From the IMG/VR virus record IMGVR_UViG_3300043777_000073, positions 1 through 62,033 of that record: a DNA stretch of 62,033 nucleotides. One strand, 5' to 3'. Below are positions 1-32,122 of the stretch, piece after piece. The notes below the pieces were generated by a model. The model was given only the letters and a program-made list of their open reading frames with translations. It did not search any database and was not told the DNA's origin. The position numbers and the translations under genes are program-made. The DNA is from a virus (taxonomy: Duplodnaviria; Caudoviricetes). Every line of letters begins with the position of its first letter. The first letter of the stretch is position 1.

Positions 1-126
1 GGCGCCGCTCGCGCCGTGGGCGCCGCTCGCGCCGTGGGCGCCGCTCGCGCCGTGGGCGCCGCTCGCGCCGTGGGCGCCGCTCGCGCCGTGGGCGCCGCTC
101 GCGCCGTGGGCGCCGCTCGCGCCGTG
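1..126. repeat. 18-bp tandem repeat GGCGCCGCTCGCGCCGTG x7, truncated by the window edge
   Basis: Seven perfect copies; they encode (HGASGA)n in the methyltransferase frame. Confidence 0.95.
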
Positions 127-2055
127 GAGTTGGCCCGGTGCATCTCGATCGCGGCCAGTCAGTTCACTCCCGTCCACAAGGTCGAAACCATCAAGCCCGA
201 AGTCTCGTTCCCCGCGCGACGGCTTCGCGCAGAAGAAGAAGCGTGCAGCGCCTCCGACATCGCTGCGCGCAGTACCTGGCGAGTCGATGCCACCGAACAT
301 GCCGCCGCCATAATCTGCCCGATGCTCGCCGCCGCCGCTCATACCAGGACGGTCGCCAGATTGTTCGTTTAGGAGCTTGACAGGACAGCTTTCCACGCAA
401 GAGTAGACTTCGCCGACTTCGCCGCGCTTCGTCTGCGCGAGGCTGCCGCGCGTAAAGCCAATCGACTTGACCGGCTGATCGGGTGTGGCGCCTAGAATGG
501 GCCGCACACCGACAACCTCTCCAGTCTTGCGGCATCCGTCCGCATGGCTCAGTGCGATGTGAGCCGGCCAGCGGCCATTCGCCTGCGATTCGAGATACTC
601 CGGCAGCGAGCCAGCCGCGCGCTCGGTATGCAGACCAAAGTCGCCGATGCCGGCCCCGTGACTTGGGTGGCCCAGTCTTTGCGCCACCGCCGCCGCCGCC
701 GCCGCCGCCTTATCCTCTTCGCTGACGTAACCGATCCGGCACGCATCGATGTTGAGCGCGCCAGTTCCATGGCGCAAGACGTTCGCCGCTAGCGTCGGCT
801 CAGAGAGCGGCGCGCGCGCTAGCCACCAGTCCTCGCAGGCCGGCTTGAGCGCAGAGCCCCAGCCGTCCCAGGCCGCCGAGGCCGCCGAGGCCGCCGAGGT
901 AATGGCGTGCCCCGGTTCGCGCATGTCAAGTCCGTAAACATCCGTTTGCACACCGTTCGGACGTCTCGCGGCATATTGGCCTTGCCCGAGCACCGGCCGC
1001 TCATTCGCTTCCGCCAGTGCTTGATATTCACTTGCGAGCGTACCGACCGTGAATGAGATTAGGCTTGCCGCCATGAACTCCGTAGTAGTGGCACTCGTGG
1101 CAGAGGCATTGTCCGTTTCGTGTGTCATGCCTGAGTTCTGGATGTGTTCGGATCGGCTTGATGTGATGAGCTTCCAGTCTTCGAGTAGAGCCGCATATAG
1201 CGCATCGCTTGCCGCCGCCATCGATGACGGCTCGCTTCCAAGCCAGATCTTCAGGGCTGCGGCGCCCCTGAGTCTGTCCGGCGTGACGCCGCTTGGCAAG
1301 TCCAGAGCATCGTTGGGAGCAGTAGAAGTGTCCGTGCGGTCTGCCGCTGTGATTGTCGATGAGCCAACTTTTATATTTTTGACTGATTCTTCCGCATCCG
1401 TCGCATCTGCGCTCCACCATGTGGAAGGCTCGCTTGCATCCGGTGGAGCAGAACATTGCTCCGCTTCGCACGTGTGATGGGCTTCGGTTACCAACGGTCC
1501 CGCACTGGACGCATCGCACGGCAACTTTTCTGGATTGATTCGCTGCGCTGCACGCTCGCGAGCAGAACGGGCCGCGTCTAGCTGGTCCGCCGCAACGCCG
1601 GCACGCGCCGCGTATTCGCCAAACGCGCGGCAGAGCGCCGGTTGATCTACCTCGCGAACCCGCTGCTGCAACCGCACCCACTTGTCCCGCTCCTGTTTAT
1701 CTATATGCTTTGATATGTTAGCGCTTTTCGGAAACCCGCTCGCAAAAAAATGCGCCACTCGATCACGCACATCCCATCCCGCATTCTCGATGGCCATTGC
1801 GGTCCAGTGCGACGTCCTAGGCAGCGCCCACACGAGCGCGTGCGCGCCAGGCTTTGCGACGCGTCGCAACTCCACGAACACTTCGGCTAGCCACGCGATC
1901 CACTGATCGCGTCCGCCTTTATCCTTGTCCCATTCGGCATTCATGAAGGCGATGCCGCTCGGCGGATCGGTCACGATGGCGTCCACGCTCGCGGTGTCCA
2001 TCGTTCGCAGGACTTCGAGCGCGTCGCCGTGGTGGAGAGTCCAGCGAGCGGTCAT
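1..2055 (-). CDS. DNA methyltransferase (N4/N6 beta-class, phage type), 3' end runs off the window
   Basis: Not in the ORF track because it has no stop in the window. I read the frame by hand from ATG 2055 to base 1 and found no stop. It reads MTARWTLHHGDALEVLRTMDTASVDAIVTDPPSGIAFM...LRRVAKPGAH...SGFPKS...WDGWGSALKPACE...GTGALNIDACRI...GRWPAH...GGAARFFFCAKPSRGERD, blocks typical of this family. Motif IV is DPPS. Confidence 0.9.
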   Translation of the reverse strand, partial: MTARWTLHHGDALEVLRTMDTASVDAIVTDPPSGIAFMNAEWDKDKGGRDQWIAWLAEVFVELRRVAKPGAHALVWALPRTSHWTAMAIENAGWDVRDRVAHFFASGFPKSANISKHIDKQERDKWVRLQQRVREVDQPALCRAFGEYAARAGVAADQLDAARSARERAAQRINPEKLPCDASSAGPLVTEAHHTCEAEQCSAPPDASEPSTWWSADATDAEESVKNIKVGSSTITAADRTDTSTAPNDALDLPSGVTPDRLRGAAALKIWLGSEPSSMAAASDALYAALLEDWKLITSSRSEHIQNSGMTHETDNASATSATTTEFMAASLISFTVGTLASEYQALAEANERPVLGQGQYAARRPNGVQTDVYGLDMREPGHAITSAASAASAAWDGWGSALKPACEDWWLARAPLSEPTLAANVLRHGTGALNIDACRIGYVSEEDKAAAAAAAVAQRLGHPSHGAGIGDFGLHTERAAGSLPEYLESQANGRWPAHIALSHADGCRKTGEVVGVRPILGATPDQPVKSIGFTRGSLAQTKRGEVGEVYSCVESCPVKLLNEQSGDRPGMSGGGEHRADYGGGMFGGIDSPGTARSDVGGAARFFFCAKPSRGERDFGLDGFDLVDGSELTGRDRDAPGQLHGASGAHGASGAHGASGAHGASGAHGASGAHGASGAHGASGA
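1028..1681 (-). CDS. HNH endonuclease with N-terminal CxxC...FCSxxC zinc-finger repeats, nested in an alternative frame inside the methyltransferase gene
   Basis: CAICGSTRRLEAHHIKP...NGQCLCHECH HNH core and three FCS/YCS repeats. AGGAG lies 8 nt upstream of the GTG. Confidence 0.88.
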   Translation of the reverse strand: MGAVAAAGSRGRSTGALPRVWRIRGACRRCGGPARRGPFCSRACSAANQSRKVAVRCVQCGTVGNRSPSHVRSGAMFCSTGCKRAFHMVERRCDGCGRISQKYKSWLIDNHSGRPHGHFYCSQRCSGLAKRRHAGQTQGRRSPEDLAWKRAVIDGGGKRCAICGSTRRLEAHHIKPIRTHPELRHDTRNGQCLCHECHYYGVHGGKPNLIHGRYARK

Positions 2056-11251: not shown

Positions 11252-11325
11252 TGTCCGACTAGGCGCTTCCGGGCTAGGCAGTGCACGTCAACGTTCGGTG
11301 ACGCAAGGCAAGGGCCCTTCGGGGC
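11252..11325 (+). ncRNA. orphan 5-nt-periodic unit (putative guide RNA) ending GGCAAG plus a TTCG hairpin
   Basis: tgtcc gacta ggcgc ttccg ggcta ggcag tgcac gtcaa cgttc ggtga cgcaa ggcaa, then gccc-ttcg-gggc; intergenic. Confidence 0.65.
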
Positions 11326-11338
11326 GTAGGAGCGAACG

Positions 11339-11644
11339 ATGAAAATTGTAAAGCTGAGCGACGAGACGTGCAGGCTGATTGAGGAGGCGAACGAGATAGA
11401 TCGTGCGGCTCGCGAATTGGACGCCGAGTTCAAGCGCCTGCCGGAGTACGCAGCGTTCCAAGCAGCCGCGGTGGATGGCGGTGTGCCTGCGTATTGTCCG
11501 GCTGCAGTCGCCCTGCAGATGCTGGAGATAACGTCCAGATGTCGTCGGGCGGATGGAGACCGCGACGCGGCCGTGAAACGCGCGTGGGCCGCTTTGAGAG
11601 CAGACATAGGCGTAGTCTGGAGCATGTATTATGAGCATTACTAG
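11339..11644 (+). CDS. hypothetical protein
   Basis: AGGAG RBS. Confidence 0.6.
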   Translation: MKIVKLSDETCRLIEEANEIDRAARELDAEFKRLPEYAAFQAAAVDGGVPAYCPAAVALQMLEITSRCRRADGDRDAAVKRAWAALRADIGVVWSMYYEHY

Positions 11645-12404: not shown

Positions 12405-13223
12405 ATGGCATTCGGAAAAAAGAAGGTCGAGATCAACTACAATCAAGCCAATGTCGCGATGCTCGCGGCGGATGCACTCAAGAAGTCTAGAGCGGTGCGT
12501 GTCCGCCTGGCACTGCGGCTGACGTTCGATACGCCGCTTCTCATGCAGCGGTGGACGACGAAAGCGGTGCGGCAGATGCTCGGGAAGATGGTGGGCATGC
12601 CCGAGCCGAAGGTCTCGAAGGATCTAACGAAAGACTTCGAGGAGTCGTACTACCGGAACACGAACGGCGAGCCGGTTATCCCGTGCCGCGTCATCAAGGC
12701 GGCAATCGTCTCCGGGGCCATCGCAACGGGAGATGTCGTCACGAAGGCGGACCTCAAGCGAAGCTTGCGGGTCATCGGCTGGACGGCCCCAGTCGTGTTC
12801 AAAGGCGCGAAGACCATGAGCACCATGATCGTTCGCAACAGCGGCGGCCAGCCTGACGTTCGTGCACGCGCGGAGTTCCCTGTCGGTTCAACCGTCGACA
12901 TCCTTGTCGAGTTTGGCGTGCCGCTCACGCCGGACAAGGTGATGGCCGCCATCGAAGCCTCAGGCGTCGCTATCGGCATTGGCGAGTGGCGACCTGAGAA
13001 CGGCGGCGAGCTTGGGACGTTCCACGTCGACATCTTGAAGAACGACAAGGCGGCGCACGACCGAATCATCAAGGCGACGAGCGTGCCGGAGGACGAGTTC
13101 GTGATTCCGCCCGAGATGCTTCGGACGCTGGAGAGCATTCCAGTGGAGAAGCTAAGCGACTCCGCGCGCAAGGTTCGGTCGTTGGCGGATCACATCGGAA
13201 AGCAGAAAAGAACCGGGACTTGA
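12405..13223 (+). CDS. solitary Cas7/RAMP-like protein (Vipr-like), copy 1
   Basis: N-terminal strand plus TPLLM, IPCRVIKAAIVS helix, VRARAEF, and C-terminal Gly-rich loop GVAIGIGEWRPENGGELGTFHV. AGGAGG RBS. Confidence 0.8.
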   Translation: MAFGKKKVEINYNQANVAMLAADALKKSRAVRVRLALRLTFDTPLLMQRWTTKAVRQMLGKMVGMPEPKVSKDLTKDFEESYYRNTNGEPVIPCRVIKAAIVSGAIATGDVVTKADLKRSLRVIGWTAPVVFKGAKTMSTMIVRNSGGQPDVRARAEFPVGSTVDILVEFGVPLTPDKVMAAIEASGVAIGIGEWRPENGGELGTFHVDILKNDKAAHDRIIKATSVPEDEFVIPPEMLRTLESIPVEKLSDSARKVRSLADHIGKQKRTGT

Positions 13224-13224
13224 A

Positions 13225-13473
13225 ATGACTCGAGACAAGCAGATCAATTTCCGCGTTTCCGAGGACGAGGCGGCCCGATTCGATCGTGTCGCCGAGCACT
13301 ATGGGCTGGCGATGGCAGCGATGATTCGGATGCTCGTGAAGGAGAAGGGACGATACCATACGGGGACGTCGAGGCAGGCATGGTCTCCACCGGATTGGAG
13401 CGGCAAGGACGGGTTAGGCATGGCAGGCAAGGTTTCCACCGGATCGGAAAGTCCAGCACCGGCATCGGACTAA
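13225..13473 (+). CDS. ribbon-helix-helix (CopG-like) regulator whose C-terminus reads into the periodic array
   Basis: KQINFRVSEDEAARFDRVAEHYGLAMAAMIRMLV. Confidence 0.7.
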   Translation: MTRDKQINFRVSEDEAARFDRVAEHYGLAMAAMIRMLVKEKGRYHTGTSRQAWSPPDWSGKDGLGMAGKVSTGSESPAPASD

Positions 13474-13756
13474 ACTCCGAACGCATAGGAAGTCAACGGC
13501 TTGGCGAGGCAGGAGTGTCTAGGAGCGGCTTCGTGGGTTCACGAACGGATGGGACCGGCGTGGCAAGGCAGGCAAGGCAGCGATCGAATCGGCGTCGCAT
13601 GGATTGGATCGGCACGTAGGGGTCAGGTATGGCAGGAACGGATAGGATAGGCGCGGATAGGATACGGAATGGATTGGCAAGGCAGGCGTCGATTGAAGCG
13701 TAGAGGATAGGAGCGGCACGTATCGGTCATCACCTGATTGGACCGGCATGGCAGGC
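13373..13756 (+). ncRNA. 5-nt-periodic array (GGH-NN)n, six units delimited by GGCAGG (putative guide-RNA array 1)
   Basis: Units 13377-13425, 13426-13511, 13512-13570, 13571-13634, 13635-13684 and 13685-13753. Each is a run of pentamers closed by a 4-nt GGCA. Confidence 0.8.
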
Positions 13757-14364: not shown

Positions 14365-14441
14365 GTCCAGACATCGCACGTCCCGATGCGGTTCGGTAAC
14401 GCTAGTATGGGCAACGCTAGACAAGGCAAGAGGCTTCGGTC
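14365..14441 (+). ncRNA. 5-nt-periodic unit ending GGCAAG plus a TTCG hairpin (putative guide)
   Basis: gtcca gacat cgcac gtccc gatgc ggttc ggtaa cgcta gtatg ggcaa cgcta gacaa ggcaa, then aggc-ttcg-gtct. Confidence 0.55.
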
Positions 14442-15851: not shown

Positions 15852-16361
15852 TTGACCCCACCCGCCAAGCCTCGCCGCAAAGCCAGATACGCAAAAGACG
15901 ACGCCCGGGCGGTAGACGCCCTAGAGCGCCAGCGCAAGGTGCTTGAGCTTCGGATCAAGGGCTTCGGCCACCGGGAGATCGCCAAGGAGCTTGGCATCGC
16001 GGTGGGGACCTCCCACAAGGACACCGAGCTTGGCCTCAAGGCCCTGCAACCGCTCGAAGAGGCGGAGGTCTTGCTCGGCATCGAGCTTGCGCGCCTGGAC
16101 CGCTACCAGAAGGCGCTCGACGACGGCGCGGAGTCTGGGGACGCCCGGAGCGTGCTGGCCGCGCTGAAGATCATGGATCGGCGGGCCAAGTACCTCGGCC
16201 TGGATGCCCCGGCGCAGCTCGAGCACTCGGGCACCCTGAAGCACATCAACGTTGACCCTTCCAAGCTCAGCGACACCGAACTTCGAGACCTTGCGTCAGG
16301 AGCTTGGCCCCAGGCCCCCGGCGGCGATGGTGGCAGCGGCGGAGCTGGAGCGGCGGCGTAG
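15852..16361 (+). CDS. terminase small subunit (HTH)
   Basis: LELRIKGFGHREIAKELGI; LKIMDRRAKYLGLDAP; overlaps the large subunit. Confidence 0.8.
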   Translation: MTPPAKPRRKARYAKDDARAVDALERQRKVLELRIKGFGHREIAKELGIAVGTSHKDTELGLKALQPLEEAEVLLGIELARLDRYQKALDDGAESGDARSVLAALKIMDRRAKYLGLDAPAQLEHSGTLKHINVDPSKLSDTELRDLASGAWPQAPGGDGGSGGAGAAA

Positions 16362-17733
16362 GCTTCGCACGACGGGCCTGCTCGACTTCGTTCCGCTGCT
16401 CAGCCCGCAGTGGGATAGTCCGAAGCACCTTGAGCCGCTCACGTCGCGCTTCGAGCGCGCGCTGATCGAACCGATTCGCTTTCTCTTCAGCGTCCCGCCG
16501 CAGCACGGCAAGACGGAGACGGTCGCCCACGGCATCGTCTGGACGATGCTGCGCGACCCTACTCGGTCGCACATCTACGTCACCTACCAGACCAAGCGAA
16601 CGCGCGAGGTCAGCATCCGAACCCGCCAGCTCGCTGAGCGCGCAGGGCTCCGGCCGGAAGGCACGCAAGACCTCTGGCGCCTGCCGGAGGGCGGGCAGAT
16701 AAGCTTCACCTCCTTCGACGGGCAGCTGGGCGGTACGCCCGCGTCCGGTCTCATCATCGTCGACGACCCGCACAAGAACCGGCAAGAGGCCGAGTCGTCA
16801 ATCGTACGAGAGCACGTCTGGAGCGAGTTCAACTCGTCGGTCATGACTCGTATGCACAATACGACATCGGTCGTGGTCATCCACACGCGCTGGACGACCG
16901 ACGACCTCATAGCGCGGCTCGAGAAAATCGACGACCCGATTGAGCCAGAGCGCAAGCTCTGGCCCTACACGAACCTGCCGGCCATAAGCGAGGCGGGCGA
17001 GCTACTTTGGCCCGAGCACAAGTCGCGGCGTCTCATCGAAGAGGCCCGGGCGCGAAACGAATACGCGTGGTGGTCGCTCTTCATGGGGCAGCCGAGACCC
17101 CCAGGCGGCACGGTCTTTCACGACGTGCAGTTCTATGACGAACTGCCCAAGACCTACCGCGTCGCCTTTGGCCTGGACCTCGCGTACACGGCGAAGACAC
17201 GCAGCGACTACTCGTGCGCGGTCGTGCTCGCCGAGAGCGGCGGCAACTACTACGTACTAGACGTCAAGCGGGCGCAGTGCCCGACGCCGGAGTTCGCCCC
17301 CAAGCTTCGGGAGATCAAGGCGTCGTACCCGGGCGCGCAAGGTCTCTGGCACACGTCGACGACGGAGCCGGGAACCGCGGACTTGCTCCGCGAAGTCCTC
17401 GGATTCCACATCCGCAGCGAGCTTGCGCGCGGTGACCCCTTCCAGCGCGCTCAGCCCGTCGCGGCAGCCTGGAACACACGCGAGGGGCATCCGGGCCGCG
17501 TTTTCCTTCCCCGCGACAGGCCGTGGGTCGAGGCGTTCGTGTCCGAGCTTGTGAACTTCACCGGGGACCCGAAGCGCCACGATGACCAGGTGGTCGCGCT
17601 GGCGTCCGCGTATCAACTGCTCTCGATGGGGCATGCGGAAGTGCCCCGAGCCTTCCCGACCAAGTTCACGAAGCAGACGGGCGGCGGCCCCGTGTTCCCC
17701 GAAGGCGGCAAGGGCGGAGGATTCGTCTGGTGA
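16327..17733 (+). CDS. terL: terminase large subunit
   Basis: Walker A PPQHGKT, Walker B LIIVDDP, HTRW, nuclease GLDLA...SDYS and HDDQV. The ORF is open from 16252; ATG 16327 chosen. Confidence 0.95.
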   Translation: MVAAAELERRRRLRTTGLLDFVPLLSPQWDSPKHLEPLTSRFERALIEPIRFLFSVPPQHGKTETVAHGIVWTMLRDPTRSHIYVTYQTKRTREVSIRTRQLAERAGLRPEGTQDLWRLPEGGQISFTSFDGQLGGTPASGLIIVDDPHKNRQEAESSIVREHVWSEFNSSVMTRMHNTTSVVVIHTRWTTDDLIARLEKIDDPIEPERKLWPYTNLPAISEAGELLWPEHKSRRLIEEARARNEYAWWSLFMGQPRPPGGTVFHDVQFYDELPKTYRVAFGLDLAYTAKTRSDYSCAVVLAESGGNYYVLDVKRAQCPTPEFAPKLREIKASYPGAQGLWHTSTTEPGTADLLREVLGFHIRSELARGDPFQRAQPVAAAWNTREGHPGRVFLPRDRPWVEAFVSELVNFTGDPKRHDDQVVALASAYQLLSMGHAEVPRAFPTKFTKQTGGGPVFPEGGKGGGFVW

Positions 17734-17930: not shown

Positions 17931-18436
17931 GCAACCTCGCGCCGTACTCGCCGCAGTTCCGTGTCCGAACGGATGCGTGGGGAAAAGATGAGACGAAGCC
18001 GGCGACCCCCGTGGTCGCGAGGCAGCCGGTCATAGATTGGATCAGGGCGAACGCGCCGGACCTTCGGCTTGGAAAACTCGCCAGCTGTGAGCATTGGAAC
18101 GAGACTGAGAAACGCAGCGAGCGCTTCGAGCATCGCCGCTGCATTGCGGCGTTCACATTCGACGGAGAGCGTTTCAACCTGGTCTCGTGCGCTGGCGTAG
18201 CCGAGGATCCAGACGATCACGTCATCCGACTTTGCGAGGATGCGCTGCGCAAGGCGATGAAGATCGAGGCCGCCCAGGGCCGGCCGCGTGAGCCCGGACT
18301 CGAGCAGCAGGTCATCGAAGCGGAACTCCAAGGCGACGCTTCCGAAGTGGCCAGACTGACGCAGCTTCTCATCGGCGGCCAACCCCGCGATCCAGATCGG
18401 TTTCGACCGATACCAATTCGACAGCGACAAGTGTGA
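17927..18436 (+). CDS. hypothetical protein
   Basis: GTGA-coupled ORF. Confidence 0.6.
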   Translation: MSNLAPYSPQFRVRTDAWGKDETKPATPVVARQPVIDWIRANAPDLRLGKLASCEHWNETEKRSERFEHRRCIAAFTFDGERFNLVSCAGVAEDPDDHVIRLCEDALRKAMKIEAAQGRPREPGLEQQVIEAELQGDASEVARLTQLLIGGQPRDPDRFRPIPIRQRQV

Positions 18437-18473
18437 AAACTAGAAGGCCCCAGCCCATCGCTGGGCCAGGGCC
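18436..18473 (-). terminator. hairpin with T-rich tail closing array 2
   Basis: Minus strand ggccctggcccagcgatgggctggggcc-ttctagtttt, at a convergent junction. Confidence 0.55.
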
Positions 18474-18476
18474 GTC

Positions 18477-18786
18477 TCCTTGCATCACGTCGCGCTACCA
18501 CGCTCAGCAGAGCACTGGCATAGGACGCAGGACCGTGCCACACGAGAACCAGCCACGCCGTGCGCGACCCCGCGCTGCCGGAGCTTGCGCCTGATTGATA
18601 GTTCCCGCCCGAGCCTTCCGACGCGAACGGGAATCCTTGGATTGCATTGCCTGGCCGGACCCGACGACGGCCCAGGGCGCAAGGCCGCACGCGGCGTCGA
18701 CCCGCCACGCAGTGCCGAACCTCGGATGGCATCTCATTGCCGAGCGCCGCGAAACGACACCTGGCGAAGCCCGGCACAGCGCTGCC
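18477..18786 (-). ncRNA. 5-nt-periodic array (NGY-NN)n downstream of RAMP-like gene 2 (putative guide-RNA array 2)
   Basis: 30 in-register pentamers 18786-18637 and 20 in-register pentamers 18579-18480; each run ends CAAGGA. Confidence 0.8.
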
Positions 18787-18791
18787 CTAAT

Positions 18792-19409
18792 TTATTCAGC
18801 CGCCGCCGAATGCTCGACGCGGTCCCACCGCTCGACGACGAACTTCCCGAAGACCCCCTTGCGGGCAGGGCGAAAGTCGCAGAGGCCGACTCGTTTCCCA
18901 GCGAGGTCCCATAGCTGCCGGATCGTATTCTCGCCGATCTCGGCATCGTCTAGTTCGATGCGTACGTGGAACGCCCAGCGGTCAAACCGAGGGCGCACGA
19001 TGCAGACCGCTTCGTTGCCGTTCGGGTTGACCCCCTTACGGACGTCGGGCTCCCAGGCGACCGCCTTTTTATCGTTGTCGGGGTCAACGAGCGGCAGCGC
19101 GAAATCCAGCATCGACATGAGTCCCGGCAGGATGGTCGACTTGCCAGTGCTGATCTGCCGCTTCGCGTCGAGGCGCACGAACACGCCTGCCGCAATGAGG
19201 CACGCCATCAGATTCTCACCGGGCAGCATCGGCTTCCCGTCGTGCAAATATAGCTTCGGCTCCGCATCTTCGCGCGGCGTGCGGACATGTCCAATGTCCT
19301 TCGCCTTTGGCTCCTTGACCTTCGTCCTAAGTTTTTCGAGGACGTTGTCACCGACTCGGTTCATGAGTAGTGGCGACGTTCCTCTGCACTTCACTCGAAT
19401 CAACAACAT
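18792..19409 (-). CDS. solitary Cas7/RAMP-like protein (Vipr-like), copy 2
   Basis: IRVKCRGTSPLLMN, LPGENLMACLIAAG, VRPRFDRW, AGKRVGLCDFRPARKGVFGKFVV. Confidence 0.82.
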   Translation of the reverse strand: MLLIRVKCRGTSPLLMNRVGDNVLEKLRTKVKEPKAKDIGHVRTPREDAEPKLYLHDGKPMLPGENLMACLIAAGVFVRLDAKRQISTGKSTILPGLMSMLDFALPLVDPDNDKKAVAWEPDVRKGVNPNGNEAVCIVRPRFDRWAFHVRIELDDAEIGENTIRQLWDLAGKRVGLCDFRPARKGVFGKFVVERWDRVEHSAAAE

Positions 19410-19423
19410 GACGAGCCCTTCTC

Positions 19424-19491
19424 CCCATATTTCGGGGTGCCGTGGATAACGATGCGCTGAACTACAATGCCAAGCCGTGCGAAGGCTGGCC
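19424..19491 (-). ncRNA. leader 5-nt-periodic unit upstream of RAMP-like gene 2
   Basis: ggcca gcctt cgcac ggctt ggcat tgtag ttcag cgcat cgtta tccac, then a cccc-gaaatat-gggg hairpin. Confidence 0.65.
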
Positions 19492-19667
19492 TACTCGTCT
19501 TTGACTTTTCCCTCCCCATGCCGCCTCCGATACTCCGCACGGACCATCCGTCGGAGCACGTCGGCCTTCTCAGTGCCGTCGATATCCGCCAGTAACGCCA
19601 GCATTCGCGTCTCATCCGTGGAAAGACAGAGCGTGAATCTGAAGGGGCGGCGGGCGATGCGAGGCAT
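19491..19667 (-). CDS. ribbon-helix-helix-like small regulator (58 aa, below the ORF-track cutoff)
   Basis: Hand translation: MPRIARRPFRFTLCLSTDETRMLALLADIDGTEKADVLRRMVRAEYRRRHGEGKVKDE. Confidence 0.65.
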   Translation of the reverse strand: MPRIARRPFRFTLCLSTDETRMLALLADIDGTEKADVLRRMVRAEYRRRHGEGKVKDE

Positions 19668-19885
19668 GCGGATTAGCTACGCCAACACATGCGGACAGTC
19701 AACGGAAAAGAGATGAAACAGCAAGACAAGCCGGCGCCATCGCGCAGGCCACGACATGGCACGCGTCGCGGACCGGCCCCCGAGGTCATCATCCGGCCGC
19801 GCCGGCACTACACGGGCGCGACGGGAGCGAGCATCGGGGACCTTCCCGAGCGCGCCGAGTTCGATCGCGGGAGCCGCGTCATCAA

Positions 19886-20083
19886 GTGACCCAGCCGACG
19901 CAGGCGCAGCTCGACTACGTCGAATGGGCGTCGCTCTGGCCGCTCGACAAGCCCGAGCCGCATCTCCCCTACGGCACCCGCTGGCGCTACTTCCGCAGCC
20001 TCTACAACGCGCCCACCCTGACGGGCCTCTTGCTCGGCGTCTTCCGTACGCCCTGGATGCAGGAGCGCCTCGCCGCCACATGA
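19886..20083 (+). CDS. hypothetical protein
   Basis: Coupled small ORF. Confidence 0.5.
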   Translation: MTQPTQAQLDYVEWASLWPLDKPEPHLPYGTRWRYFRSLYNAPTLTGLLLGVFRTPWMQERLAAT

Positions 20084-20316
20084 CTGCCGAACAGAAGCTC
20101 GCCCTCATCAAGCGGCACGCACCGAGCTTCAAGCTCGAGCCCTACCAGTACGGTGGCTCGCACGGATGGTGCGCGACCGTCAAGATCAACGGCAAGCCCT
20201 ACGAACTCAGCGAAGTCGGGCCGGCGAAGTTCTCGGACAGAATGCGAAGCAACATCATCCAGTGCGTCTTCGAGGACGACCGGGTCGTACCTCGCCACGC
20301 GAGGCTGAGCGCCTGA
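20080..20316 (+). CDS. hypothetical protein
   Basis: ATGA-coupled, high GC3. Confidence 0.6.
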   Translation: MTAEQKLALIKRHAPSFKLEPYQYGGSHGWCATVKINGKPYELSEVGPAKFSDRMRSNIIQCVFEDDRVVPRHARLSA

Positions 20317-20684
20317 TGCGTCCAAGCTTCCACAAGTCGTCTGGCTTCAGTGGCACCATCCCCGTTCGTCTCGAGGGCGCACCGGACGGGCCTCTCGCAA
20401 ATCAGACGATGTTCCGAGGCGTCAAGGACTTCGAGCACGCGACCCTGTCGCGGGCATTCGGACTGGACCCAGCAACTTTCTGGTTCGACGTGGCGTCGAC
20501 GGCGCGGGGCATCGGCTCGAACACGGGCTCACATTCGGGACGCCGTGGGACGATCGACGGCTTCGTCTTCTGGGGCGAGTACGGACGCCCGGTCGCCAAG
20601 CTGCGTGTCATCTGGCCAGGCGAGAAGCTCTGGGACTCCGACCCCGGCAGCCGCGCAGACTTCGAGAGGCTCGACCACTCCTGA
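20316..20684 (+). CDS. hypothetical protein
   Basis: TGATG-coupled. Confidence 0.55.
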   Translation: MRPSFHKSSGFSGTIPVRLEGAPDGPLANQTMFRGVKDFEHATLSRAFGLDPATFWFDVASTARGIGSNTGSHSGRRGTIDGFVFWGEYGRPVAKLRVIWPGEKLWDSDPGSRADFERLDHS

Positions 20685-20875
20685 TGTGTGAGCGCGCGAC
20701 GGAGCAGCAGCGCAACGAATTTGCGGAGGCGCTCAAGCGATTGGGAACCGAGAGCGTCATACCTCTTGACGAGGTCGACGCCACCGCACCAACGACGTCC
20801 ACGAAGGATCACGAGGCAGGCACGCCATAACCGGCGGCCCGCCCACCTGGGGCCGCGCACCAGGGAGATGTTTCG

Positions 20876-21325
20876 ATGAACTCGTCAATCGCAGCAGCCA
20901 ACAAGCACAACGCGACGCAGTACCTCACCAAGTACGGCTGCATTGCGGCCCGCATCGGCACCAACCACATGGTCAAGCTTCGGGTCGATTGGACCTCGGA
21001 GCAGGGCCGGTCGTTCCGCAAGGGCACCAACGTCCAGCTGACGTGCCTGGACATCACGCGCCACCCCGAGCTGACGAAGACCAAGGGCCTGGTCACGTGG
21101 CACTGCGTCTACTGCCGGCAGGACTGGGAGTCGAAAGAGGAACTCATCGCCGCGCATCCCGACAACCGAATCCTCGCCAAGCAGCTCGAGACGCACCTCT
21201 ACTACGCGACGGCGCAGCGGGCCGCGAGCGCAGGCAAGCCGGCCAAGCACGATGGCAACAAGGTCGTCGCCGAGGCCGTCGAGGCGGTCGAGTCGGTCTG
21301 CGCGCTATTGAGCGATGAGGAGTGA
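20876..21325 (+). CDS. hypothetical protein
   Basis: High GC3 ORF with a CxxC...H motif. Confidence 0.65.
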   Translation: MNSSIAAANKHNATQYLTKYGCIAARIGTNHMVKLRVDWTSEQGRSFRKGTNVQLTCLDITRHPELTKTKGLVTWHCVYCRQDWESKEELIAAHPDNRILAKQLETHLYYATAQRAASAGKPAKHDGNKVVAEAVEAVESVCALLSDEE

Positions 21326-21360
21326 AAGAAGACTTTTTCGATAGGTAGGGCGCACCCGAT

Positions 21361-23289
21361 ATGGCAAACGTAGGTGCACCCAACGGAGGCGGCTGGACGA
21401 ATGGCCCTCAGCCTAACGGCGCGGCCGTTGGGCCGGCGCGCGGCGCGCAGGGTGCCGGAGGCAATCTCCTCATTGACCAGTTTGGCAACTGGCTGCCGCC
21501 GACCAATGACCCAGCGTTTCAGCCGCCAGGCAACCCGCTAAGGGACATCGAAGCCGCCAAGGGGCGCGCGAAGGTCATCCACCGGGAGATCCCCAACGTC
21601 GTCGTCGAGACGGGCTGGAGCCCGGGCTCGATCCGTTCGGCGCTCATGGATCTGGTCGTCGGCGTCTTCGACCGACCGAGCCAACTTCACGAGAGCATCA
21701 TGGCGGACTCGCGCGTGCAAAGCGCGATGAAGTCTCGGAGCGGCGGGCTTCTGGGCCGCGCCATTCGGTTCAAGGTCCCCAAGCGGTTCAAGGACGACCA
21801 GCGCGCGATCGACTGCCACGGCTCGTGGGAGCGGCACTGGCCCGCCATGCACGCGGAGCCCGCGCTCCTGCAGCTGCTCGAGACCGCGCACTCGCTCGGG
21901 TTCTCCTACTCGCAGATCCTATGGGACACGAGCAAGCGCGTCTGGAAGCCGTACCTCGTTCCGTTCAACGCGCGCTACTGCTACTACCACTGGACGCTGC
22001 GCACGCACGTCGCGGTCACGCTCGACGGGCAGATGCCCATCACCGGCGGCGACGCCCACTGGGTGCTGCACGCTCCCTACGGCAGCTACCGCGGCTGGAT
22101 GTTCGGGGCGCTTCGCGCCATCGCGCAGTGGTATCTCGCGCGAAACTACGCGCTCAGGGACTGGGCTCGGTACTGCGAGCGCCACGGCTTCCCCATCCCG
22201 CTGGCCGACACGCCGTTCGGAGCAGACCCGCAAGACATCCTCGCGTATCAGCTTCAGCTCGCAAACCTCGGACAAGAGTCCGTCATGCAGCTGCCGGGCT
22301 CGGTCGACGTCAACAAGTACGGCAAGTACGACCTCCGGTACCTCGAGCCCAAAGACGACAACTGGCAGGCGTTCAAGGCGCTCATCGAGCAGTGCAACGA
22401 CGAGATCACTCTCTCGCTGCTCGCCCAGAACCTCACGACTCAGGTCAAAGAGGGAAGCTTCGCGGCCGCCCGCGTGCACGCCGACGTGCGCCAGGCGCTG
22501 CTCGAAGCCGACGCTCGGGCGCTCGCCAAGACGCTTTACGTCCAGGTCGCACGCCCGTTTGCGGCGCTCAACTTCGGCGACGCCAACCTCGCTCCCGAGA
22601 TCACGTGGGACGTCCGGCCGCCGGAAGACCTCAAGACCAAGGCGGAGACGTTCGAATCGCTCTGCGTGGCCATCGCGCAGATGCGCATGGCCGGCATCAG
22701 GCTCACGGACGTCGAGCGCTTCGCACGTCGCTTTGGCATCATCGGCATGCAGGTCGAGGACATCAACCCACTGCAGGTCGAAGCCAAGCTCGCGCAAGCC
22801 ACGGGCAAGGTCGAAGCTGGCGGCGACGCCGAGCCAGTCGCAGACGACGAAAAGAAGAAAAGCAAGAAGTCCGACAAGCAGAACGAGGGCGAAGAAGGCA
22901 AGGGCGAAGAGGCTGTGGCATCTCGCTCGGAGCAGCGCCGCGTCGAACGCCGTCGCACAGCGCGCATGGTCACCAAGGCCACGCGCCGTGCGGCCCGCTC
23001 GGTGATTGCCCCCGCTCTCGAAGTCGTCGAGGCCCAGACGCGAGAGACCGCCGAGCGCCTCGCAGCCTTCGGTGCGCAGCTCGCAGAGCTTGCCGCGAAA
23101 GAGCCGCCTCCTCCCCCGCCGGCGCCAGAGCCACCACGTGAGCCGGAATTGACCTTTGCCCAGCGTAACGCCGCATTCCTCGCCGACCTCAAAGAGATGC
23201 GCGACCTCGGACTCAAGACCGACAGACTAGCCATCGAAGCCCTCGCCGAGCAGCATGGCGTGCCTGCGCCCGAATCTGAGGACGACTGA
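21361..23289 (+). CDS. portal protein (Mu gp29 / DUF935-like) with long C-terminal extension
   Basis: DWARYCERHGFP, LIEQCNDEITLSLLAQNLTT..GSFAAARVHADVR. Confidence 0.9.
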   Translation: MANVGAPNGGGWTNGPQPNGAAVGPARGAQGAGGNLLIDQFGNWLPPTNDPAFQPPGNPLRDIEAAKGRAKVIHREIPNVVVETGWSPGSIRSALMDLVVGVFDRPSQLHESIMADSRVQSAMKSRSGGLLGRAIRFKVPKRFKDDQRAIDCHGSWERHWPAMHAEPALLQLLETAHSLGFSYSQILWDTSKRVWKPYLVPFNARYCYYHWTLRTHVAVTLDGQMPITGGDAHWVLHAPYGSYRGWMFGALRAIAQWYLARNYALRDWARYCERHGFPIPLADTPFGADPQDILAYQLQLANLGQESVMQLPGSVDVNKYGKYDLRYLEPKDDNWQAFKALIEQCNDEITLSLLAQNLTTQVKEGSFAAARVHADVRQALLEADARALAKTLYVQVARPFAALNFGDANLAPEITWDVRPPEDLKTKAETFESLCVAIAQMRMAGIRLTDVERFARRFGIIGMQVEDINPLQVEAKLAQATGKVEAGGDAEPVADDEKKKSKKSDKQNEGEEGKGEEAVASRSEQRRVERRRTARMVTKATRRAARSVIAPALEVVEAQTRETAERLAAFGAQLAELAAKEPPPPPPAPEPPREPELTFAQRNAAFLADLKEMRDLGLKTDRLAIEALAEQHGVPAPESEDD

Positions 23290-30919: not shown

Positions 30920-32122
30920 ATGAAGACCCTTCTGTCACTCACCAAGGACCGCGACGACGCTCTCAAGGCCGTGGCTTCGGCTACGAGCGCGGGTGCGCGC
31001 AAGAAGTCGCTTGCCTCGCTCGAGGCCGCGTCGCTCGCTCTGGCCAAGTTCCAGGCTCAGCTCGCATCCAAGGCGGCAGCTCGCAAGCCGGTCGCCGCCG
31101 TCGACGCCGACGAGGAGGATAGCGACGACGAGGAAGAGGAGAGCGAAGAGGAAGAAGAGGAGTCGACCGACTCATCGGACGACGAGCCCAAGAAGCCGAT
31201 GGAGAAGAAGTCCAAGAAGGCGAAGGCCAAGTCGAAAGACAAGGACGACGACTCCGACGACGATGACGGGGACGACGACGACGACGAAGACGAAGAGGAA
31301 GAAGACGAGGAGGAAGAGGACGACGAAGAGGAGACCTCCGACTCCGAGGACGACGACGAGGAGGAAGAGGACGAGGAGGACGACGAAGAGGAAGAGGAAG
31401 AGCGCGCCGCAAGCGCGTCGGCCCTCGCGTCCGCTCGCTCGGTGCTTTCGGCGGCCAAGAAGGCAAACGACCGCCGCGCCATCACCTCGGCCCGCGCCCA
31501 CTTCAAGTCCGTCAAGTCGGCCGTCGCCGCCATGAGCAAGACCTCGGCGCGCTACCACAAGCTCAAGGCCGTCTGCGCCGCTGTCACCGGCAAGAAGGGC
31601 CTGCAGAGCATCCTCGGCGGCATCCAGGGTCTCGCGGTCAAGGCCGCGCAGGAAGAGGCCAACACGCGCGACATCGCCAAGATGAAGGCGGCCTCGAAGG
31701 CCAAGCGCGTGAACGACATGCTCGCGCAAGCGGTCGCCGACGGCAAGATCACACAGAAGACCGTGCCCATCCTGCGCGACGGCATGACCAACACCAAGAC
31801 GCTGCGCGCGTACCTCGGCGCTCTGCCGAAGCTCGTGCGAAGCACCAAGGATCCCGAGCTTGTCGGGCGCACGCTTCGTGGCAGCACGGACGCAACGGCC
31901 GACAAGGACCGCCAGGAAATCCTCGACTTCCAGGCGCTCAGCCCCGACCTGCAGAAGTACGTCACGCAGGAAGCCGCTGCGCAGGGCAAATCGATCGACG
32001 ACTTCATGAAGTCGATGCAGGCCGTGTCGGCGAAGGCTGGCGGCGGCGTGTCTCCCATCGCGGTCAAGCGGGCCGAAGCGGACTTCATTCCCCACCGTTC
32101 GAACGGTGCAGCAGGTCAGTAA
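30920..32122 (+). CDS. putative capsid scaffolding protein with a long Asp/Glu tract
   Basis: Lies between protease and capsid genes; LAQAVADGKIT motif. Confidence 0.65.
   Translation: MKTLLSLTKDRDDALKAVASATSAGARKKSLASLEAASLALAKFQAQLASKAAARKPVAAVDADEEDSDDEEEESEEEEEESTDSSDDEPKKPMEKKSKKAKAKSKDKDDDSDDDDGDDDDDEDEEEEDEEEEDDEEETSDSEDDDEEEEDEEDDEEEEEERAASASALASARSVLSAAKKANDRRAITSARAHFKSVKSAVAAMSKTSARYHKLKAVCAAVTGKKGLQSILGGIQGLAVKAAQEEANTRDIAKMKAASKAKRVNDMLAQAVADGKITQKTVPILRDGMTNTKTLRAYLGALPKLVRSTKDPELVGRTLRGSTDATADKDRQEILDFQALSPDLQKYVTQEAAAQGKSIDDFMKSMQAVSAKAGGGVSPIAVKRAEADFIPHRSNGAAGQ

What the first reader, a model, noticed from the sequence alone, without database searches (positions are those of the whole stretch)
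19386..19491. Gapped code readable in the sequence: the leader unit spells the start of its own RAMP gene at codon positions 1-2
Seen: the dinucleotides of the leader unit (minus strand from 19491) are ca tt ac tt at ag ag at. Reverse-complemented with one skipped base after each, they give ATn CTn CTn ATn AAn GTn AAn TGn, compatible with M-L-L-I-K-V-K-C. The gene about 30 nt downstream begins ATG TTG TTG ATT CGA GTG AAG TGC (M-L-L-I-R-V-K-C). Five of eight dinucleotides are exact, two are synonymous Leu differences that would be G:T wobbles, and one is K/R. Inference: guides pair 2 nt and skip 1 nt, in phase with the codon wobble position, so targeting is insensitive to most synonymous escape. 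This unit either autoregulates the gene or silences the homologous effector of a rival phage.
Basis: partly seen in the sequence, partly recalled or inferred. Interest (0 to 1): 0.92.

Follow-up and report, generated by a model that had tools for sequence, protein, structure and literature searches.

The report
Guide RNA gene of a phage VIPR system
The stretch is most likely the upstream guide-RNA gene of a phage VIPR system, a recently described relative of CRISPR that reads DNA two bases at a time and skips the third, but its partial match to the start of its own gene is too weak and too isolated to count as a working target.

Summary
On the minus strand from 19488, reading two bases every five gives exactly the eight dinucleotides listed. 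The 205-aa gene at 19409 starts as stated, and the match is 5 of 8 dinucleotides (12 of 16 bases).

The "gapped code" is not new. The gene encodes a solo Cas7-like RAMP homologous to the solved SUSP1 Vipr protein. It is flanked by 5-nt-periodic tracts with a conserved tail. This is a VIPR locus as described in three 2026 preprints, including the 2-read/1-skip, wobble-aligned rule.

The stretch is probably the upstream vrRNA of that locus (about 0.8).

The self-match is only suggestive:
- For it: it is the only site at 12/16 or better in the 62-kb window. Only 7 of 5040 reorderings of the dinucleotides match that site as well.
- Against it: identity is 0.75, below the published 0.8 threshold. 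It does not extend on either side. Three of the eight units lie in a segment resembling the conserved tail. No own-start match appears in 58 and 50 homologous-locus tests. No rival vipr start reaches 13/16.

A different guide downstream of the gene does hit rival vipr genes (23/28; 1 of 5000 permutations).

Verdict: a new member of a known kind. Autoregulation or rival silencing by this unit is unproven.

The parts
19491..19667 (-). Small ORF (58 aa, P0002) just upstream of the guide tract. Its stop codon is at 19493-19491. It is a candidate accessory (vap-like) DNA-binding protein; a ribbon-helix-helix pattern is seen by eye only.
   Evidence: ORF and translation. No Pfam, NCBIfam or PHROG hit. 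Weak, non-significant likeness to the 82-aa ORF beside the second vipr gene (E 0.17).
19447..19491 (-).
   Evidence: Stride-5 series confirmed. GGY-scan score is 18 of 24 against a window mean of 9.33, sd 2.28. Reading the sequence over eleven in-phase units, all 11 third scaffold positions are pyrimidines and 8 of 11 middle positions are G. Same-strand upstream tracts occur in 36 of 76 homologous loci. Part of the tract aligns in register with vr-d2 and vr-d3 (D1 and D4).
19440..19447 (-). Tail box ATCCACGG, a variant of the family's TCCAAGG box.
   Evidence: Coordinates. TCCAAGG occurs 71 times on the vipr strand and 18 times on the opposite strand across 84 loci. Consensus.
19423..19437 (-). 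Tail hairpin: 5-bp stem, 5-nt loop.
   Evidence: In relatives, 26 of 71 boxes are followed by a GC hairpin against 5.2 expected. 3 of 4 stem pairs show compensatory changes in 9 sequences. Those sequences were pre-selected for having a hairpin.
19416..19422 (-). Purine-rich ribosome-binding site of vipr.
   Evidence: Sequence read directly.
18792..19409 (-). vipr gene: a 205-aa solo Cas7-like RAMP (P0001).
   Evidence: phrog_4652 E 1.8e-20. Profile against PDB 36pp_D 'SUSP1 Vipr protein' E 1e-7 over residues 2-194. Fold matches.
19386..19409 (-). First eight codons of vipr: the proposed target site, 12 of 16 read positions matched.
18642..18786 (-). Downstream in-phase tract of 29 units. I read it as two head-to-tail vrRNAs: vr-d1 (guide about 18786-18742) and vr-d2 (guide about 18721-18652, tail box 18641-18635).
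   Evidence: Tract caller and sequence. The vr-d2 guide matches rival vipr genes at 23 of 28.
18480..18579 (-). Third downstream tract, 20 units (vr-d3).
18446..18473 (-). Terminator-like hairpin with a T-rich tail that closes the array.
   Evidence: 12 pairs, 1 site found against 0.2 expected.

Best explanation
The stretch 19447-19491 (minus strand), with the box and hairpin that follow it, is the upstream guide-RNA gene (vrRNA) of a VIPR system. The adjacent 205-aa gene is its Vipr protein.

By the published mechanism (taken from the literature, not shown here), Vipr protomers polymerise along the RNA. Each holds one scaffold triplet and presents the next two bases. The filament then binds double-stranded DNA whose sequence matches those dinucleotides with one skipped base between them, and silences transcription.

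In this clade the scaffold is relaxed from GGY to NGY, and the tail is a TCCAAGG-type box plus a short GC hairpin that abuts the vipr ribosome-binding site.

I read the 12-of-16 match to the gene's own first eight codons as not being a working self-target. Most likely it is a coincidence, made easier because both the dinucleotides and the gene start are A/T-rich in a 65% G+C genome. It is also made easier because three of the eight units derive from the conserved A-rich tail-proximal module. The real target of this guide is unknown and lies outside the window.

My odds: about 0.8 that this is a vrRNA of a VIPR locus, and about 0.5 for the whole statement including 'not a functional self-target'.
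For: The protein is a Vipr:
- A profile of 51 homologues hits PDB 36pp_D (SUSP1 Vipr protein) at E 1e-7, full length.
- It has a Cas7/Csm3 fold and belongs to a viral-only family.

The locus architecture fits:
- The two strongest NGY/NN pentamer tracts in the window (29 and 20 units) lie directly downstream of the gene on the same strand and end in a terminator.
- Across relatives, tracts of 8 or more units lie downstream within 500 nt in 60 of 70 loci and upstream within 150 nt in 36 of 76 loci. The same-strand to opposite-strand ratio is 143:34 downstream and 60:10 upstream.

The tail is a family element.

The match is not functional by published criteria:
- Identity is 0.75, under 0.8.
- Adding the ninth unit gives 12/18, which is no longer the best site in the window.
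- A best-in-window score of 12/16 is reached by 53% of permuted guides.
- Relatives give 0 of 58 and 1 of 50.
- Units 5-7 align in register at 70% identity with the tail-proximal module of vr-d2 (D1). In the family consensus that module is conserved, not variable.
Against: - The site-specific coincidence is not trivial. This is the only site at 12/16 or better in 124,000 positions. Only 7 of 5040 reorderings match it as well. If G:T pairs are allowed it is 15/16 pairable, reached by 1 of 5040 reorderings, the observed order itself.
- It sits exactly at the start codon, in frame, with the skips on wobble positions. The October 2026 preprint describes this for guides against rivals' vipr genes.
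- This same locus carries another guide with a significant match to rival vipr genes, so anti-VIPR targeting is in its repertoire.
- The upstream tract is weaker than the downstream ones: 3 of 11 triplets break NGY, and it is below my caller's threshold of 6.
- I have no expression data for it.
Confidence: 0.5

Rival explanations
1. The upstream vrRNA is an anti-VIPR guide aimed at the first eight codons of the vipr gene of a closely related rival phage. The phage's own gene matches only 12/16 because it has diverged at exactly the read positions. It has two TTG Leu codons where the guide reads CTN, and Arg (CGA) where the guide reads AAN. This spares it from self-silencing.
For: - There is precedent. 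Solo vrRNAs read the early codons of relatives' vipr, about 90% of them wobble-aligned, with self-match lower than rival match.
- The match is position-specific.
- TTG makes up only 22 of 559 Leu codons (3.9%) in 16 genes of the window, yet it fills codons 2 and 3 of vipr.
- Homologues with near-fitting N-termini exist at protein level, such as MLLVKVKC and MLLIQVKC.
- vr-d2 of the same locus matches rival vipr genes at 23/28, reached by 1 of 5000 permuted guides, against 15/28 on its own gene.
Against: - No target was found. The best of 77 distinct vipr starts is 12/16 (L097), and none reaches 13.
- The exact pattern with vipr context found 0 hits in viral contigs and 0 in genome contigs.
- Against all positions of 84 vipr genes, the guide's best score (13/16) is reached by 13% of permuted guides.
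- AT-rich rare codons near start codons are common for other reasons. The closest relative with DNA in hand (L022) also uses TTG TTA.
Confidence: 0.28
2. Autoregulation. The upstream vrRNA, loaded on Vipr, binds the start of its own vipr gene through a partly wobble-paired match and damps vipr transcription as negative feedback.
For: With G:T pairs allowed, 15 of 16 positions can pair, and only the observed order among 5040 reaches this. The site is promoter-proximal, and promoter-proximal targets repressed a reporter in the published system.
Against: - No tolerance for mismatches or wobble pairs is described in the passages I read. A term search for 'mismatch' in the structural preprint gave 0 occurrences.
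- The published self-contig controls found no self-target at 0.8 or better.
- The Oct 2026 preprint reports, for vrRNA-targeting guides, self-match scores consistently lower than rival-match scores and reads this as avoidance of autoimmunity.
- The feature is absent from relatives: 0 of 58 and 1 of 50.
Confidence: 0.1
3. The stretch is not a working vrRNA. It is an ordinary 81-nt spacer or 5' leader of vipr that carries decayed remnants of a former repeat tract and tail, and the dinucleotide match is pure chance.
For: - The tract is short and imperfect, and falls below the caller's threshold.
- It overlaps the stop codon of the upstream ORF.
- The box has A-to-C and spacing changes relative to the family consensus.
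- The spacer as a whole folds no better than shuffles (z +0.71).
- 40 of 76 relatives have no upstream tract.
Against: The pentamer phase is kept over eleven units with a pyrimidine at every third scaffold position (sequence). The scan score is about 3.8 sd above the window mean. The box-plus-hairpin sits where relatives have theirs, directly before the RBS.
Confidence: 0.12

Closest known systems
VIPR systems (Viral Interference Programmable Repeat), type II examples from phage SUSP1 and a Pseudomonas fulva prophage. Sources: bioRxiv 10.64898/2026.04.26.720920 and 10.64898/2026.04.26.720927.
   Same: A solo phage-encoded RAMP homologous to SUSP1 Vipr. 5-nt-periodic guide RNAs made of scaffold triplet plus read dinucleotide. 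One guide upstream and an array downstream of the gene. A conserved structured 3' tail. No CRISPR array or other cas genes. A 1-nt-skip target rule.
   Different: - The scaffold here is NGY (the 'YNNNG' variant named in that paper's methods) rather than GGY.
- The tail is a TCCAAGG-type box plus a 4-5-bp hairpin, not the SUSP1 pseudoknot.
- The downstream guides run head to tail in one phase (staggered type).
- The neighbouring small ORF has no recognisable family.
- The host is an uncultured 65% G+C phage that carries a second, distantly related VIPR locus.
- I could not assign one of the seven published types, because the supplements were closed.
vipr-targeting solo vrRNAs of SUSP1-family VIPR-null phages. 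Source: bioRxiv 10.64898/2026.10.15.759431, section 8 and discussion.
   Same: Guides that read the early codons of a vipr gene. Skipped bases fall on wobble positions. The self-match is lower than the match to rivals.
   Different: Here the guide sits in a VIPR-positive phage. The only known match is to its own gene at 0.75 identity. No rival target at 0.8 or better was found.
Cas7 backbone subunits of class 1 CRISPR effectors (Csm3, Cmr4, Csf2, type VII Cas7)
   Same: Same RRM/thumb fold (Z 8-10.8). Filament formation on a guide RNA, with periodic interruption of pairing by the thumb (from the literature).
   Different: A single small RAMP without partners. 2-read/3-hidden units on the guide and 2-read/1-skip on the target, instead of 5+1. 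No CRISPR repeats, Cas6, Cas10 or adaptation genes. No sequence-level hit to any PADLOC Cas model.

Membership tests
VIPR system | Vipr protein: a small solo RAMP homologous to characterised Vipr | tested here: met
   Profile A1 against PDB 36pp_D 'SUSP1 Vipr protein': E 1e-7, query residues 2-194 against chain 2-190 of 202. The single sequence alone gives only E 0.16. Cas7-like fold with pLDDT 88.1.
VIPR system | Tandem 5-nt repeats (GGY/NN or a related consensus, at least 4 units) flanking vipr on the same strand | tested here: met
   29-unit and 20-unit NGY/NN tracts lie downstream and a 9-11-unit weaker tract lies upstream.
VIPR system | Invariant, structured 3' tail after the repeat tract | tested here: met
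   TCCAAGG box: 71 on the vipr strand against 18 on the opposite strand. Hairpin after 26 of 71 boxes against 5.2 expected. Compensatory changes in 3 of 4 pairs (sequences pre-selected for a hairpin). The window's upstream copy is a variant (ATCCACGG, 2-nt spacer, 5-nt loop).
VIPR system | Accessory vap gene next to vipr | tested here: inconclusive
   The 58-aa ORF upstream (P0002) has no family hit. The 82-aa ORF beside the second vipr has only sub-threshold RHH-type hits (NikA-like E 2.5e-4, RelB 2.5e-3).
VIPR system | Virus-borne, minimal locus without a CRISPR array or other cas genes | tested here: met
   The record is a virus record. The locus lies between the terminase large subunit and a Mu-like portal. 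Tandem Repeats Finder shows no CRISPR-like array. There is no Rfam hit. Only the three locus proteins were scanned against PADLOC.
VIPR system | Targets recognised by the 1-nt-skip rule at 0.8 NN identity or better | tested here: met
   Met for vr-d2: 23/28 = 0.82 on the vipr gene of L077, and 22/28 on three relatives. 1 of 5000 permuted guides reaches 23. Not met for the finding's own unit: 0.75 on its own gene and no other hit.
VIPR system | vrRNAs expressed as about 100-nt RNAs bound by Vipr | not testable with these tools
   No RNA run was listed for the locus.
CRISPR-Cas (class 1) | CRISPR array of direct repeats and spacers, plus a multi-subunit cas operon | tested here: not met
   No array. 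Neighbouring ORFs have no Cas family hits. The fold is shared, but membership is not.

The most novel reading that the evidence does not exclude
The upstream vrRNA is a weapon against the vipr genes of the phage's closest rivals, reading their first eight codons. The phage protects its own copy by the few changes that a wobble-skipping code cannot ignore. These are two rare first-position-synonymous Leu codons (TTG where the guide reads CTN) and a conservative Lys-to-Arg change. That would be a first example of 'synonymous self-immunity' inside a VIPR-positive phage, in a clade far from the characterised enterobacterial systems.
Probability: 0.25. Interest if true: 0.6.

Novelty: new member of a known kind. 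Interest (0 to 1): 0.35.

Why it matters
VIPR was described only in 2026 and has been characterised in enterobacterial and Pseudomonas elements. This window adds several things:
- a divergent, high-G+C, uncultured phage carrying two unrelated-looking VIPR loci;
- a relaxed scaffold (NGY);
- a simple box-plus-hairpin tail;
- head-to-tail guides;
- one guide with a statistically solid match to the most conserved motif of rival Vipr genes.

That supports the published view that these systems are used in phage-against-phage conflict well beyond the model clades.

The specific claim of the finding, a guide that spells its own gene's start, would bear on how such systems avoid or exploit self-recognition. 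On present evidence it is a lead, not a result.

Tried and rejected
- Rfam gathering scan found 0 families, and the tRNA scan found 0 genes.
- blastn of 18000-22000 against phage records gave no match.
- The single-protein locus search in viral contigs found none. The alignment-based search then worked.
- Neighbour conservation: apart from vipr and its antisense shadows, only the terminase ORF had a homologue, in 1 locus. Gene context is therefore not conserved with the window.
- The whole 106-nt spacer folds no better than shuffles (z +0.71).
- No sigma-70 promoter or terminator pattern occurs in 18600-20100.
- A generic count of hairpins before the start codon was not above shuffles (19 of 59 against 16.2, sd 3.1). 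Only the box-linked hairpin is enriched.
- By eye, the recurring GGCA words looked like sigma-54 or palindromic binding sites. I dropped that idea once the pentamer phase and the VIPR literature explained them.
- PADLOC gave no Cas model hit.
- The MAFFT alignment of 16 tails (A2) put the 3' stem arms out of register and was not used. A gap-free subset of 9 (A3) was used instead.
- A permissive regex for box plus hairpin over the whole window returned mostly noise. I used it only for coordinates.
- The exact-pattern scans are reported above.
- No RNA holder was listed for 18400-19700.
- One call failed on a strand argument and was repeated correctly.
These include type tables, data S3/S4 and the vrRNA logos. 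They may already list this clade, its type and its targets.

Full report
**What is at the coordinates**

The window is a 62,033-bp linear virus record with 64.8% G+C. On the minus strand, a 58-aa ORF ends at 19491 and an 81-nt spacer follows. A 205-aa ORF then starts at 19409 with ATG TTG TTG ATT CGA GTG AAG TGC.

The finding's eight dinucleotides are real, but only when two bases are read every five, starting at 19488. Among strides 2-15 on both strands of 19300-19720, this is the only 8-of-8 hit. Against codon positions 1-2 of the first eight codons, the reverse-complemented series matches 5 of 8 dinucleotides, or 12 of 16 bases. It is the best of 345 stride and offset combinations in the spacer, and the next best scores 9.

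**What the gene is**

P0001 has no Pfam, NCBIfam or PADLOC hit. It belongs to phrog_4652, of unknown function (E 1.8e-20). It has 163 database relatives at E<=0.001 among 348 candidates. These are almost all unnamed metagenomic or viral proteins.

A 51-sequence alignment supports the long N-terminus. With that alignment AlphaFold gives pLDDT 88.1 and pTM 0.83.
- Foldseek's top PDB hits are all Cas7-family subunits: Csm3, type VII Cas7 and Cmr4, with E from 2e-6.
- The Foldseek-independent search ranks Csm3 first (6ae2_B, Z 10.8, 150 residues aligned, rmsd 3.3). Nearly all of the top 23 rows are Cas7-like proteins.

So "RAMP gene" is right.

The family profile also matches one solved chain by sequence. 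This is 36pp_D, "SUSP1 Vipr protein", at E 1e-7 over essentially the full length.

**What is known**

That name led to three 2026 preprints.

I read the Results and four Methods sections of 10.64898/2026.04.26.720920. It makes these points:
- VIPR systems consist of a solo phage RAMP (Vipr) plus about 100-nt vrRNAs.
- Each vrRNA has 9-16 five-nucleotide repeats in which a conserved GGY alternates with a hypervariable NN. An invariant structured tail follows.
- Typically one guide lies upstream and an array lies downstream of the gene.
- Targets are double-stranded DNA matching the NNs with one skipped base, mostly at the wobble position, on either strand.
- Natural targets were called at 80% NN identity or better, and no self-targeting hit passed that level.
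- Variant repeats (NNNGG, YNNNG, NNNNG) and staggered arrays exist.

The section I read of 10.64898/2026.04.26.720927 gives the structural basis of the 2-read/1-skip geometry.

Section 8, section 17 and passages of 10.64898/2026.10.15.759431 report further points:
- Some guides read the early codons of relatives' vipr genes.
- About 90% of such guides are wobble-aligned.
- Their self-match scores are lower than their rival-match scores.

**Is this locus a VIPR locus?**

Yes.
- A scan for five-nucleotide units with G at the second and a pyrimidine at the third scaffold position finds two outstanding tracts in the whole window. Both lie directly downstream of the gene on its strand: 18786-18642 (29 units) and 18579-18480 (20 units). 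All other calls have 7 units or fewer.
- The array ends in a terminator-like hairpin at 18473-18446.
- I examined 84 distinct homologous genes, taken from 20 viral and 80 metagenomic loci. Same-strand tracts of 8 or more units lie within 500 nt downstream in 60 of 70 loci that have enough flank. They lie within 150 nt upstream in 36 of 76 loci.
- Near tracts favour the gene's strand 143:34 downstream and 60:10 upstream.
- Tracts end in a conserved TCCAAGG-type box: 71 copies on the gene strand against 18 on the opposite strand. In 26 of 71 cases a short GC hairpin follows, against 5.2 expected from shuffled flanks.
- The hairpin stems vary with compensatory changes in 3 of 4 pairs, and 0 of 500 shuffles reach this. 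The nine sequences used were pre-selected for having a hairpin.

**The finding's stretch within this picture**

The finding's stretch shows the following:
- It keeps the pentamer phase over eleven units. Every third scaffold base is a pyrimidine, and 8 of 11 middle bases are G (sequence).
- It scores 18 of 24 on the GGY scan, against a window mean of 9.33, sd 2.28.
- It is followed by ATCCACGG at 19447-19440, a 5-bp hairpin at 19437-19423, and the ribosome-binding site.
- Relatives show the same layout.

I read it as the upstream vrRNA, with about 0.8 confidence. Three things lower that confidence. It is weaker than the downstream tracts. It overlaps the preceding stop codon. No expression data could be obtained.

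**Is the match to its own start meaningful?**

In favour:
- Shuffles of the spacer reach 12/16 with P = 0.0002 at stride 5 and P = 0.0062 for strides 2-12.
- 7 of 5040 distinct reorderings of the eight dinucleotides do as well at that site.
- The site is the only one at 12/16 or better on either strand of the window, where reordered guides average 0.84-0.87 sites.
- Allowing G:T pairs, 15 of 16 positions pair, a value reached only by the observed order.
- The hit is at codon 1, in frame, with skips on wobble positions.

Against:
- 0.75 is below the published threshold.
- The neighbouring units do not extend the match. Nine units give 12/18, which is no longer the window's best site.
- 56% of reordered guides have some site at 12/16 or better in the window. 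3.3% have one inside a vipr ORF, and 0.24% have one in the first ~15 codons of one. With about ten guide-like tracts in the window, the corrected figure is near 0.02.
- Units 5-7 align in register, at 70% identity, with the tail-proximal module of the second downstream guide (D1). In the family consensus that module is conserved rather than variable, so these may not be read positions.
- The decoding does not generalise. In 58 non-redundant homologous loci, the best stride-5 match of the upstream 100 nt to the locus's own first eight codons averages 8.17, against 8.16 for shuffles. None reach 12, and 2 of 58 have p<0.05.
- For 50 called upstream tracts tested against their own -30..+120 region, the mean is 9.88 against 9.87, and 1 of 50 has p<=0.05.

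For the rival-phage version:
- None of 77 distinct vipr starts reaches 13/16. The best is 12, in L097.
- The guide's best score over all positions of 84 vipr genes (13/16) is matched by 13% of permuted guides.
- The pattern extended by the family's next conserved codons hits nothing in viral contigs or genome contigs.

One point keeps the rival reading alive. The gene's codons 2 and 3 are TTG, a codon used for only 22 of 559 leucines (3.9%) in 16 genes of the window. These are exactly the first-position synonymous differences from the guide. However, AT-rich codons after a start codon are common for other reasons (general knowledge, not tested here). The nearest relative with DNA in hand also has TTG TTA.

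**A better-supported target in the same locus**

An all-against-all test used 2,019 eight-unit guide windows from 203 tracts against 84 vipr genes. It shows an excess of near-perfect matches over permuted guides: 12 against 3.0 at 15/16, and 4 against 0 at 16/16.

One of these signals comes from the window's own second downstream guide.
- Its 14 units match the vipr gene of L077 at 23 of 28 positions (0.82), and three relatives at 22 of 28.
- The match lies over the codons of the family's most conserved W-x-P-D-V-R-K-G-x-N-P-N-G motif, on the opposite strand, with the skip falling on codon position 1.
- 1 of 5000 permuted guides reaches 23.
- The phage's own gene scores 15 of 28 at the homologous site.

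So this phage probably does target rival VIPR systems, through a different guide from the one in the finding.

**Verdict**

The specific claim that this unit acts on its own or a rival's gene start remains unproven.

My odds:
- 0.50 that it is a vrRNA with a non-functional or coincidental self-match.
- 0.28 that it is a guide against a close rival's vipr start, with the phage's own gene spared.
- 0.10 that it autoregulates its own gene.
- 0.12 that it is not a working vrRNA at all.

The locus is a new, divergent member of a known kind.

Noticed in passing
window 12405-13223 (+), with 13225-13473, 13377-13729, 11262-11330 and 14390-14440: There is a second, distantly related Vipr-like gene (272 aa; phrog_4652 E 2e-13; 22% identical to the first, E 0.002). 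An 82-aa ORF follows it, with sub-threshold RHH-type hits. GGN/NN pentamer tracts follow that. Further tract-plus-box-plus-hairpin elements sit directly before the ORFs at 11339 and 14450. The phage therefore appears to carry two VIPR loci with different scaffold consensus.
   Followed up: partly
window 18721-18652 (-), against L077, L079, L081, L082: The second downstream guide matches rival vipr genes at 23/28 and 22/28 over the conserved NPNG-motif codons. Its own gene scores 15/28. 1 of 5000 permuted guides does as well. The alignment is not wobble-phased, because the skip falls on codon position 1.
   Followed up: yes
L021 against L016, L015, L017; L098 against L088, L013; L072 against L101: Other loci of the family also carry guides with 15-16 of 16 matches to foreign vipr genes over several consecutive windows. 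Anti-VIPR guides therefore seem recurrent in this clade.
   Followed up: no
window 1-127: There is a perfect 18-bp tandem repeat, 7.1 copies, at the very start of the record. It could be a terminal repeat, an assembly edge or a coding repeat. I did not examine it.
   Followed up: no
window 19365-19409 (-): The source's own gene call (P0003, 190 aa) starts at Met16. The 51-sequence alignment conserves the 15 residues upstream, so the annotated start is probably too short.
   Followed up: yes
window 16252-17733 (+) and 21361-23289 (+): VIPR locus 1 lies on the opposite strand between the large terminase subunit and a Mu-like portal gene, like an inserted cargo module. Its neighbours are not conserved in the homologous loci.
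   Followed up: partly
window 19469-19481 against 18552-18564: The upstream tract and the third downstream tract share a 13-nt stretch with one difference, in register with the pentamer units (D4). This suggests that guides arise by duplication within the locus.
   Followed up: no
L025 about 516-541, and about 35 nt before its vipr start: Two box-plus-hairpin tails lie about 110 nt apart upstream of one vipr gene. This implies two upstream guides in that relative.
   Followed up: no
window 31244-31402 (+): A long GAC/GAG-rich low-complexity repeat, an acidic tract, lies inside the 400-aa ORF 30920-32122.
   Followed up: no
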